Assembly: GCA_009914755.4 (NCBI GenBank)
Contig: CP068257.2
Coordinates: forward strand, 29,664,001-29,728,000
DNA: 64,000 nucleotides
Source of the DNA: the human T2T-CHM13v2.0 reference genome, Homo sapiens
Direction: 5' to 3'
Part shown: piece by piece, positions 47,380 to 48,190 of the stretch
Layout of the letters: each line of letters opens with the position of its first letter
How positions within the stretch are numbered: position 1 is the stretch's first letter
Notes under the pieces: model-generated
Database searches by the model: none
Told to the model about the DNA's origin: nothing
The model's input: the letters and a program-made list of their open reading frames with translations, nothing else
Position numbers and translations under genes: made by a program

Positions 47380-48190
47380 ATGGCACTGACCTGCAATTAC
47401 CCAACGAGCAGCGGGACAGCCCCGGGCAGGACGCATCCTGGGTGGGTGACGTGATCCCGCAGTCTCCTCCCCGACCCCATATCCCATACAATGATCCTCG
47501 CTTACAGAAGTCAAGGGGGAAAGATGACGCTTTCAAAGCCCGAATCTCTTTACCCTGGAGCCAGAACCAGCGTCGCCGCCGTCCCCTGCAGCTCAGCCGG
47601 CAACGCGCGCCGAGCCTCGGGGCGCAGCTTGGAGACGCGCTTGCTCGTTCTGGGAAGGGGCACGGGACGCACGGTTCCCCGGCCCCAGCTGCACAGCTCA
47701 GCTCGGGGCTCTCACCTATCCTCGTTCAGAGCCACATTCGGCTGCCTCCCCTGACCACCCGACACAAAGAGATTCGCCGGTGGAAAGAATCGATTTCAAA
47801 ATTCAAGCTCACCGCTGCTCAACAAGGCGCGCACGTTTCTCCCCGTCTGGCTTCACATGTCCCAAACTTCCAGTAACAGAAATGAGGAAGCAGCAGCCTT
47901 CCCCGGCTGCTGGCGGAGGCAGTGGGTGTAACTTGTGAAGTTTCGTGCTATGATGAATCTGGTCACTTGGGTGTGTTGGAGAGGGTTGGTCGCTCCTCCC
48001 TTCCTCCTCCCACCATCACCTCCCTCCTCTCCGCCTCCCTCTCCAATTTAATTCTTCCCTCTGGCATTCGCCGGCTGTCACTCAGAATCCCAGCACCCTC
48101 CCCACCACATCCTTGGGGGCAATGTATTTCGAAAAGGTCTTAACCATTTTACGGATGAACCTGGTCACCCTGCACAAAGCGTGAGTGCTT
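47380..48190. promoter_or_regulatory. CpG island (~45 CpG in ~800 bp, GC ~58%, repeat-free). Candidate unmethylated promoter, possibly bidirectional.
   Basis: Dense CpG core 'cagcgtcgccgccgtcccctgcagctcagccggcaacgcgcgccgagcctcggggcgcagcttggagacgcgcttgctcgttctgggaaggggcacgggacgcacggttccccggcc'. A CRE-like 'tgacgtga' sits at ~47446. GC/SP1-like and ETS-like ('aggaag', 'ccggct') motifs are present. Donor-like 'aaagcg|gtgagtgc' lies at ~48178 on the + strand. Donor-like 'gatag|gtgagagcc' lies on the - strand (reverse complement of 47705-47722). Confidence 0.6.

What the first reader, a model, noticed from the sequence alone, without database searches (positions are those of the whole stretch)
47380..48190. 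Isolated CpG island: candidate promoter, possibly bidirectional, of an unannotatable transcript
This is the only repeat-free GC-rich segment in the window. It has about 45 CpG dinucleotides in ~800 bp, against a background that is strongly CpG-depleted. The core 47560-47700 is 'cgccgccg…gcaacgcgcgccgagcctcggggcgcag…gacgcgcttgctcg…cacgggacgcacgg'. Conserved CpG density in a mammalian genome implies a germline-unmethylated region, which is almost always a transcription start region. On the + strand there is a consensus-like 5' splice site 'aaagcg|gtgagtgc' near 48178-48185. The reverse complement of 47705-47722 reads 'cgaggatag|gtgagagcc', a strong donor on the - strand, so divergent transcription is plausible. 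The 176-aa ORF across it (47346-47876) is Arg/Pro/Ser/Gln-rich low-complexity sequence typical of GC-rich non-coding DNA, so a lncRNA or a non-coding first exon is more likely than a protein.
Basis: partly seen in the sequence, partly recalled or inferred. Interest (0 to 1): 0.6.

Follow-up and report, generated by a model that had tools for sequence, protein, structure and literature searches.

The report
Ordinary CpG island, probable promoter
This is a real but ordinary CpG island of about 0.8-1 kb in Alu-rich primate DNA, most likely an RNA polymerase II promoter with a non-coding first exon, read more probably on the minus strand; it does not encode a protein and I found nothing unusual about it.

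Summary
Positions 47380-48190 carry 50 CpGs, with GC 58.6% and CpG obs/exp 0.74. Non-Alu windows of the same size carry 9.3±4.2 CpGs (z≈9.7). It is the only segment of the 64-kb window that passes the strict Takai-Jones criteria (47164-48162). The core, 47400-47850, has obs/exp 0.92 and no TpG/CpA excess, as expected for DNA that has escaped germline methylation.

- **Promoter:** this is the best reading, by inference from what is known of CpG islands. No expression, chromatin or conservation data could be consulted, and the gene was not identified.
- **ORF:** the 176-aa ORF is a by-product of GC richness (P≈0.06 against shuffles, no homologues, no Pfam match).
- **Plus-strand donor:** it was mis-transcribed. 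The sequence is AAAGC|GTGAGT, and at 5.9 bits it is no better than about 300 other sites on that strand.
- **Minus-strand donor:** it is real (9.1 bits), with a second at 47813 (8.8 bits).

G-richness, G4-type runs and an upstream E-box/D-box/CCAAT cluster also favour minus-strand transcription. Compositional skews are the same on both sides of the island, so it may lie inside a longer minus-strand transcription unit, as an alternative or orphan promoter. Novelty is low.

The parts
47164..48162 (.). CpG island, outer limits by Takai-Jones criteria (GC 0.556, CpG o/e 0.75, 56 CpGs). The Gardiner-Garden/Frommer limits are 47225-47998.
   Evidence: z=9.7 against non-Alu windows; unique in the window
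47400..47850 (.). Island core: GC 0.63, CpG o/e 0.92, TpG o/e 0.83, CpA o/e 1.13, so there is no deamination signature.
   Evidence: 200-bp profile
47707..47724 (-). Candidate 5' splice site CGAGGATAG|GTGAGAGCC (last exon base 47716), 9.1 bits. This would be the end of a non-coding first exon on the minus strand.
   Evidence: The only ATGs just upstream open 1- and 3-codon reading frames (read).
47804..47821 (-). Second candidate minus-strand 5' splice site TGAGCAGCG|GTGAGCTTG (last exon base 47813), 8.8 bits.
47382..47399 (-). Third minus-strand donor-like site TAATTGCAG|GTCAGTGCC (last exon base 47391), 8.9 bits.
48172..48189 (+). It scores 5.9 bits and is not distinctive.
47995..48040 (-). 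Purine-rich, G-rich tract on the minus strand (a CCTC-type tract on the plus strand). It contains a relaxed G-quadruplex motif at 47998-48039. Local GC skew on the plus strand falls to -0.69.
48043..48047 (+). CCAAT pentamer
48210..48215 (.). E-box CACGTG (context GCCACGTGCT on the minus strand)
   Evidence: 2 of the window's 7 CACGTG sites lie within 260 bp of each other here
48242..48249 (+). TATAAAAG, a consensus TATA box in plus orientation.
48260..48267 (-). TTATGTAA, a PAR-bZIP/NFIL3 'D-box' consensus. There are 3 matches in the whole window.
48465..48470 (.). Second E-box CACGTG
47447..47454 (+). TGACGTGA, a CRE-like/ACGTG element inside the island
47952..47966 (+). GATGAATCTGGTCAC, copy 1 of a 15-nt direct repeat
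48154..48168 (+). GATGAACCTGGTCAC, copy 2 of the 15-nt direct repeat. These are the only two matches in the window.
47346..47876 (+). 176-aa ORF (within a 208-codon stop-free stretch, 47250-47873). It is a chance product of GC-rich sequence, not a gene.

Best explanation
The segment is a small, non-repetitive CpG island in a primate (presumably human) genome. It has stayed unmethylated in the germline.

**Most likely function.** It most likely acts as a TATA-less, dispersed-initiation RNA polymerase II promoter. The stable product is more likely made on the minus strand.

**Proposed transcript (inferred).** Initiation would fall somewhere around 47900-48150. A short non-coding first exon would end at the donor at 47716, or alternatively at 47813. 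It would be followed by an intron of more than 47 kb, or by further non-coding exons.

**Proposed control region (inferred).** Two E-boxes, a D-box and a CCAAT pentamer at 48040-48470 would be the upstream control region. Plus-strand initiation, if it occurs, is expected to give only short upstream-antisense RNA of the kind seen at most CpG-island promoters.

**Wider context.** The whole 64-kb window carries the composition expected of the template strand of a minus-strand transcription unit, equally on both sides of the island. The island is therefore probably an internal (alternative or 'orphan') promoter within a long non-coding stretch of a larger minus-strand gene, rather than the outer 5' boundary of transcription.

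**Shown versus inferred.**
- Shown: the island itself, its uniqueness in the window, the lack of coding potential, the motifs and the skews.
- Inferred: the unmethylated state, promoter activity, transcript direction, exon structure and intragenic position.
For: **It is a true island**
- It is the only Takai-Jones island in the window, with z=9.7 for CpG count.
- The core o/e is 0.92 with TpG/CpA near 1. The flanks have o/e 0.13-0.17 and TpG o/e 1.3.
- CpG density tapers gradually into the flanks rather than ending sharply.

**It is not a repeat or a known RNA gene**
- There is no second copy in the window, no Alu similarity, and no Rfam hit at gathering score or at E<=1.

**It is not coding**
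- Searches found no coding signal for the island ORFs.
- No recognisable coding exon exists anywhere in the window. Pfam scans of 791 stop-free stretches of at least 35 aa gave 6 matches with E between 0.0014 and 0.0086. About 8 are expected by chance at E<=0.01.

**Promoter reading**
- Roughly half of CpG islands lie at annotated promoters, and many of the remaining 'orphan' islands show transcription initiation (PMC2944787 abstract).

**Minus-strand direction**
- G exceeds C on the minus strand in nearly every 100-bp window of the island, most strongly at 47950-48150. Positive GC skew co-oriented with transcription marks CpG-island promoters (PMC3787257).
- Relaxed G4 motifs occur only on the minus strand, at 47998-48039 and 47456-47485.
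- The three best donors in the island are on the minus strand (8.8-9.1 bits). The best plus-strand donors downstream of the CpG-rich core score 5.9-6.0 bits.
- The E-box, D-box, E-box and CCAAT elements all sit on the high-coordinate side, which is upstream for a minus-strand start.

**Intragenic position**
- On the plus strand, S_TA is -0.072 and S_GC -0.076 over 20-47 kb. They are -0.071 and -0.090 over 48.3-64 kb, with standard error about 0.01.
- The non-template strand of human introns accumulates G and loses A: the A->G/T->C ratio is 1.6 (PMC2817419).
- AATAAA occurs 97 times on the plus strand and 48 times on the minus strand.
- Alu hits are oriented 29 plus to 14 minus.
Against: - No expression, chromatin, methylation or cross-species data could be consulted. 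Promoter activity is therefore an inference from class behaviour.
- The donors are not statistically striking. There are 39 minus-strand sites of at least 8.8 bits in 64 kb, about one per 1.6 kb.
- Polyadenylation-signal counts downstream in each direction do not differ from each strand's own window-wide background.
- The motifs commonest in CpG-island promoters have no exact match in the island. These are the GGGCGG Sp1 box and the NRF1, ETS CCGGAAGY, YY1 and E2F motifs.
- The island is small and weak, so it could belong to the class that is methylated in many tissues.
- One class of CpG-island promoters has a distinct GC-skew profile (PMC3787257 abstract). I recall that profile as reversed, so skew is an imperfect guide to direction.
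- The window-wide skew could be replication-associated rather than transcriptional (PMC2817419).
Confidence: 0.6

Rival explanations
1. The island is a promoter, but the stable spliced transcript runs on the plus strand. Its first exon would end at 48180 or 47970. Alternatively, a TATA-directed start near 48272 would use the TATAAAAG at 48242.
For: A perfect GTGAGT intron start follows 48180. A consensus TATA box in plus orientation lies at 48242. The CpG peak at 47550-47700 would lie just downstream of a plus-strand start near 47500, a common arrangement.
Against: The donor at 48180 scores 5.9 bits, with C at position -1, and 297 plus-strand sites score at least 5 bits. The plus strand is C-rich through the island, so the skew is opposite to the usual co-oriented pattern. 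AATAAA occurs at 48728, 48984 and 49304, within about 1.1 kb. The TATA box lies downstream of the proposed donor, so the two plus-strand models exclude each other.
Confidence: 0.15
2. The island is an orphan or intragenic CpG island that gives no stable transcript. It could instead be a poised or Polycomb-bound island, an enhancer-like element, or a replication initiation site inside a long intron.
For: About half of CpG islands are not at annotated promoters (PMC2944787). The island is small. Skews do not change across it. No canonical Sp1, NRF1, ETS or YY1 motifs were found. CpG islands have also been proposed as replication origins (PMC2817419).
Against: Many orphan islands nonetheless show transcription initiation (PMC2944787). 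If it were an efficient bidirectional replication origin, the skew should change sign at the island, and it does not (against the pattern described in PMC2817419).
Confidence: 0.18
3. The CpG richness is a neutral by-product with no function. It could come from a recently inserted CpG-rich element that has not yet decayed, as young Alus do. It could also come from GC-biased gene conversion at a recombination hotspot.
For: A young Alu in the same window (18909-19197, 94% identical to the consensus) passes loose island criteria purely because of its youth. Biased gene conversion has been proposed as a source of CpG islands (PMC2817419 abstract). I had no full repeat library.
Against: There is no similarity to Alu, no other copy in the window, and no tRNA, snRNA or 7SL-type match. 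I saw no poly(A) tail or target-site duplication in the flanks (by eye). CpG density tapers gradually over about 300 bp on each side instead of stopping at sharp insertion boundaries.
Confidence: 0.05
4. The 176-aa ORF (47346-47876, plus strand), or another ORF in the island, encodes a protein.
For: The reading frame is open for 208 codons. It shows some period-3 signal (2.65 against 0.89 in shuffles).
Against: The stop-free length has P=0.059 against dinucleotide shuffles of the island, whose mean is 148 codons. The ORF starts with TTG. Its composition is rich in Pro, Ser, Leu, Arg and Gln. There was no hit for any of the 11 island reading frames in the 5.8-billion-protein collection, and only chance-level Pfam hits among the plus-strand stretches that include it.
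Confidence: 0.02

Closest known systems
CpG-island promoter with a non-coding first exon (TATA-less, dispersed initiation, divergent transcription)
   Same: CpG obs/exp near 1 in the core, with gradual shores. G-rich skew and G4-type runs lie on one strand. Donor sites fall within the island. E-box and CCAAT elements sit on the presumed upstream side. There is no coding potential.
   Different: The island is small (about 50 CpGs) and has no exact Sp1, NRF1, ETS or YY1 motifs. Transcription start evidence is entirely lacking here.
Orphan / intragenic CpG islands (Illingworth et al. 2010, PMC2944787)
   Same: It is an isolated island with no recognisable coding exon within 47 kb on one side or 16 kb on the other. 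It is embedded in sequence whose strand skews are continuous across it. The published class often acts as alternative or developmental promoters.
   Different: 'Orphan' is defined relative to the annotation, which I could not consult. It may simply be the annotated promoter of a known gene or lncRNA.
Bidirectional (head-to-head) gene-pair promoter
   Same: A single short island could serve both strands, and donor-like GT sites exist on both strands.
   Different: The plus-strand donor is weak, the plus strand has canonical poly(A) signals within about 1 kb, and composition favours one direction. This fits ordinary divergent, unstable antisense transcription better than a true gene pair.
Young Alu elements scoring as false CpG islands
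   Same: Both pass loose GC and obs/exp thresholds in this window.
   Different: The island has no Alu similarity, passes the stricter 500-bp criteria and is single-copy in the window.

Membership tests
CpG island (Gardiner-Garden & Frommer criteria) | At least 200 bp with GC >= 50% and CpG obs/exp >= 0.6 | tested here: met
   47225-47998: GC 0.572, o/e 0.796, 50 CpGs
CpG island (Takai & Jones criteria) | At least 500 bp with GC >= 55% and obs/exp >= 0.65. These criteria were designed to exclude most Alus. | tested here: met
   47164-48162 is the only such region in the window
CpG island (biological definition) | Non-methylated in the germline and early embryo | tested here: inconclusive
   Only an indirect footprint is available. 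The core has o/e 0.92 with TpG 0.83 and CpA 1.13, against flanks with o/e 0.13-0.17 and TpG 1.3. No bisulfite or CAP-seq data were available.
CpG island (biological definition) | Unique sequence, not a CpG-rich transposon | tested here: inconclusive
   There is no Alu similarity, no second copy in the window, no Rfam match and no transposon protein domain. No full repeat library such as RepeatMasker/Dfam could be run.
RNA polymerase II promoter | Mapped transcription start sites (CAGE, 5' ESTs) and promoter chromatin (H3K4me3, Pol II, open chromatin) | not testable with these tools
   No mammalian functional-genomics data or annotation is reachable. The locus could not be named.
RNA polymerase II promoter | Sequence proxies: co-oriented GC skew, a 5' splice site downstream of the start, and upstream factor sites | tested here: met
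   All three are met for the minus strand, though each is weak on its own. Skew. Donors of 8.8-9.1 bits. E-box, D-box and CCAAT upstream.
Bidirectional gene-pair promoter | Two stable, spliced or otherwise processed transcripts starting within about 1 kb of each other on opposite strands | tested here: inconclusive
   Only proxies are available. The plus-strand donor scores 5.9 bits, which is background level, and AATAAA lies within 0.55-1.1 kb downstream. No transcript data were available.
Protein-coding exon | An open frame longer than chance, with homologues or a domain match | tested here: not met
   P=0.059 against shuffles. No homologue was found. Pfam gave no hit above chance.
Orphan / intragenic CpG island | Lies away from annotated starts, inside or between transcription units | tested here: inconclusive
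   Equal minus-strand-type skews on both sides, the AATAAA strand asymmetry and the Alu strand asymmetry suggest a spanning minus-strand unit. Replication skew is an alternative explanation, and the annotation was not available.
Structured non-coding RNA gene, or Pol III type-3 gene downstream of the TATA box | Match to a known RNA family | tested here: not met
   Rfam gave 0 hits at gathering score over the whole window. At E<=1 over 45500-50000, all hits fall in the Alus at 45839-45955 and 49348-49630 or in AT-rich sequence just upstream of the latter (49103-49382), and none falls in the island.

The most novel reading that the evidence does not exclude
The island could be a so-far-unannotated internal promoter within a long intron of a minus-strand gene. 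It would drive a non-coding RNA under bHLH (E-box) and PAR-bZIP/NFIL3 (D-box) control, possibly with a circadian or activity-dependent pattern. The paired 15-nt GATGAAyCTGGTCAC elements would be binding sites for an unidentified factor.
Probability: 0.07. Interest if true: 0.3.

Novelty: already known. Interest (0 to 1): 0.1.

Why it matters
It matters little beyond annotating this locus. CpG islands are a thoroughly catalogued class, and an island this clear will already be in public CpG-island tracks of the human genome.

What this check adds is calibration.
- The island is real and is not an Alu artefact.
- Its ORF can be ignored.
- The plus-strand splice-site argument does not hold.
- Sequence composition alone points to the minus strand, and to a position inside a longer transcribed domain.

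If annotation later showed no known transcript here, the island would be one more candidate orphan or alternative promoter.

Tried and rejected
**1. Naming the locus through coding exons**
- Stop-to-stop ORF lists showed nothing protein-like.
- A codon-usage log-likelihood ranking and a splice-site-plus-codon exon scan likewise showed nothing protein-like outside the GC-rich island.
- The best 4979 aa of candidates had no hit in the protein collection.
- All 791 non-Alu stop-free stretches of at least 35 aa, on both strands, were scanned against Pfam. They gave only six matches, with E between 0.0014 and 0.0086, which is about what chance predicts. These included CFAP298, NDNF_C, ADD_ATRX, UNC-79 and a cytomegalovirus family.

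**2. Translating a DNA reference for a PDB search**

**3. Naming the locus from the literature by sequence k-mers**
- I searched for the E-box and D-box contexts and for tiles of the putative first exon.
- Only chance hits came back. Two were checked: a non-targeting sgRNA in a BDNF paper and a GLI2 primer.

**4. Guessed candidate genes**
- BDNF was rejected because the window has no long coding exon and only one island.

**5. SVA, L1 5'UTR or Pol III type-3 gene as explanations**
- These were rejected for lack of Alu-like sequence next to the CCTC tract and of any Rfam match. No PSE-like element upstream of the TATA box was seen by eye.

**6. U1/poly(A)-signal asymmetry as a guide to direction**
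- Counts do not depart from each strand's window-wide background, so this was dropped as evidence.

**7. Scans not run**
- The bacterial, viral and metagenome DNA collections were not scanned. They could only return human contamination and carry no annotation.

Full report
**What the window is.** The 64-kb window is primate genomic DNA. Rfam's SRP model gives sub-threshold matches at the Alu positions tested. Overall GC is 43.6% and CpG obs/exp is 0.29, which is typical of methylated mammalian bulk DNA.

**Checking the observation.**
- Positions 47380-48190 hold 50 CpGs at GC 58.6% and obs/exp 0.74.
- With a sliding-window implementation, the strict Takai-Jones criteria give one island in the whole window, 47164-48162. 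The looser Gardiner-Garden/Frommer criteria give 47225-47998, plus a scatter of weaker hits that are Alus or hover around the thresholds.
- Against 314 non-Alu windows of the same length (9.3±4.2 CpGs, maximum 23), 50 CpGs is z=9.7.
- The core, 47400-47850, has obs/exp 0.92 with TpG 0.83 and CpA 1.13. The flanks have CpG obs/exp 0.13-0.17 and TpG about 1.3. The flanks therefore show the deamination footprint and the core does not.
- The island has no second copy in the window and no tandem structure beyond a weak CCTC tract.
- It has no Alu similarity and no Rfam match even at E<=1.
The statement that this is the only non-repeat GC-rich segment is fair.

**Details that needed correction.**
- The plus-strand '5' splice site' was mis-transcribed. 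The sequence is GCACAAAGC|GTGAGTGCT, with one G and a C at position -1.
The plus strand of the window has 297 sites of at least 5 bits, about one every 215 nt, so it carries no weight.
- The minus-strand site CGAGGATAG|GTGAGAGCC is real, two bases from the stated coordinates (last exon base 47716), and scores 9.1 bits.
- Two further minus-strand sites lie in the island: 47813 (8.8 bits) and 47391 (8.9 bits).
- Even these are only modestly unusual. The minus strand has 39 sites of at least 8.8 bits in the window.

**Coding potential.**
- The 176-aa ORF exists. It sits in a 208-codon stop-free stretch.
- Dinucleotide-preserving shuffles of the island give a mean longest open stretch of 148 codons and reach 208 in 5.9% of trials.
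- The ORF starts at TTG and is rich in Pro, Ser, Leu, Arg and Gln.
- A query joining all 11 long reading frames of the island found nothing in the 5.8-billion-protein collection. Pfam found nothing above chance.
- On the minus strand, the stretch upstream of the 47716 donor contains only ATG-TGA and ATG-TGG-CTC-TGA mini-frames (read). Any first exon there is non-coding.

**The rest of the window has no recognisable coding exon.**
- ORF listings, a codon-usage ranking and a splice-plus-codon exon scan gave nothing protein-like.
- The 4979 aa of best candidates had no homologue.
- 791 non-Alu stop-free stretches of at least 35 aa, covering both strands, gave six Pfam matches with E 0.0014-0.0086. 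About eight are expected by chance at E<=0.01.
- Exons shorter than 35 aa, or without a Pfam domain, would be missed.
- This is why I could not name the gene. Sequence k-mer searches of the literature returned only chance matches. Three guessed genes were negative by tblastn.

**Which way would it be transcribed?** Several independent but individually weak sequence proxies agree on the minus strand.
- *GC skew.* (G-C)/(G+C) on the plus strand is negative in almost every 100-bp window from 48150 down to 46900, reaching -0.69 at 48000-48099. The minus strand is therefore G-rich. [quoted passage not shown] From my own knowledge of that work, the skew is positive on the non-template strand downstream of the start. 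They also describe a promoter class with a distinct skew profile, which I recall as reversed, so this is a lean and not a proof.
- *G4 motifs.* Relaxed G-quadruplex motifs near the island occur only on the minus strand, at 47998-48039 and 47456-47485.
- *Donors.* The better donors in the island are on the minus strand.
- *Factor motifs.* Recognisable motifs cluster on the high-coordinate side: CCAAT at 48043, CACGTG at 48210 and 48465, and TTATGTAA at 48260. The two CACGTG sites are 2 of the window's 7, and TTATGTAA is 1 of 3 matches in the window. This side would be upstream of a minus-strand start at roughly 47900-48150.

Polyadenylation signals did not help. There is no AATAAA on the minus strand for 3.3 kb, and there are three on the plus strand within 1.4 kb. 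This merely mirrors a window-wide asymmetry of 97 to 48. A consensus TATAAAAG at 48242 points the other way, on the plus strand. I put minus against plus at roughly 60:40 for the stable product.

**Position relative to larger transcription units.**
- After removing Alus, the plus strand shows A>T and C>G throughout. S_TA is -0.072 and S_GC -0.076 over 20-47 kb. They are -0.071 and -0.090 over 48.3-64 kb, with standard error about 0.01.
- In human introns the non-template strand gains G at the expense of A: the A->G/T->C ratio is 1.6 (PMC2817419). The minus strand therefore looks like the non-template strand on both sides of the island.
- Alu orientation (29 plus to 14 minus) and the AATAAA asymmetry agree.
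- There is no step or sign change at the island. A step would be expected if the island were the outer 5' limit of the only transcription unit. A sign change would be expected if it were a bidirectional replication origin (the pattern described in PMC2817419).
- The simplest reading is that the island lies within a longer minus-strand transcription unit, as an alternative or orphan promoter. A tandem upstream gene or replication-associated skew are alternatives that I cannot exclude.

**Best explanation and rivals.** I conclude that this is an ordinary CpG island. It is most probably a Pol II promoter with a non-coding first exon, read on the minus strand, possibly internal to a larger gene (confidence about 0.6 for the package). 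The rivals are:
- a plus-strand stable transcript (about 0.15);
- an orphan island with no stable RNA (about 0.18);
- a neutral by-product, either a young insertion or biased gene conversion (about 0.05);
- a protein-coding exon (about 0.02).

**Comparison with what is known, and novelty.** The feature meets both formal definitions of a CpG island. It behaves in sequence like a weak CpG-island promoter or an 'orphan' island of the kind described by Illingworth et al. (PMC2944787). It does not look like a head-to-head gene-pair promoter. Nothing here is a new kind of element. Whether the transcript is annotated could not be checked, but an island this clear will already be in public tracks. I score interest at 0.1.

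**Limits.**
- No full repeat library, genome annotation, conservation track or functional-genomics data was available.
- The protein collection returned no hit even for repeat-derived peptides. It may under-represent primate proteins, so its silence is weak evidence.

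Noticed in passing
window 1-64000: The whole window has a consistent strand asymmetry once Alus are removed: A>T (S_TA about -0.07) and C>G (S_GC -0.05 to -0.09) on the plus strand. 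AATAAA occurs 97 times on the plus strand and 48 on the minus, and Alu hits are oriented 29 plus to 14 minus. This suggests the window lies in a minus-strand transcription unit, or on one side of a replication origin.
   Followed up: partly
window 48200-48470: A compact motif cluster lies just outside the CpG-rich part: CACGTG at 48210 and 48465, TTATGTAA (D-box) at 48260, and TATAAAAG at 48242 on the plus strand. The E-box plus D-box combination resembles clock-controlled promoters, but this is a resemblance recalled from memory and was not tested.
   Followed up: partly
window 47952-47966 and 48154-48168: A 15-nt direct repeat GATGAAyCTGGTCAC occurs twice, 202 bp apart and in the same orientation. 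These are the only two matches in 64 kb (0.01 expected), though the motif was defined after seeing it. It contains TGAACC/TGGTCA half-site-like hexamers. The binding factor is unknown.
   Followed up: partly
window 18768-19657: A cluster of four or more adjacent Alus includes a young copy (18909-19197, 94% identical to the consensus). The cluster passes loose CpG-island thresholds and is a false-positive island.
   Followed up: yes
window 41600-42600: A non-Alu patch is mildly enriched in CpG: 42068-42565 has 17 CpGs, GC 0.50 and o/e 0.56. It lies about 5 kb from the island, falls below island thresholds, and its nature is unknown.
   Followed up: partly
window 51407-51530: A 41-bp unit (ATGCACGAACGTTCAGAGAAACTGCAAACCCTGACACCCTT) is repeated three times at 93% identity and contains CpGs. 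It is a minisatellite of unknown origin.
   Followed up: no
It is probably an ancient LINE fragment.
   Followed up: no
window 3826-4017 and 54175-54455: Two stretches give similar translations ('YRKHDAGIC...GDLRKL'-type peptides) in the ORF listings. They are probably two copies of one old interspersed repeat family, which could not be named without a repeat library.
   Followed up: no
window 2416-2519, 41176-41222, 63484-63561: Three microsatellites were found: (GT)16 followed by a GA/A-rich tract, (TTA)15, and (AAGG)19.
   Followed up: no
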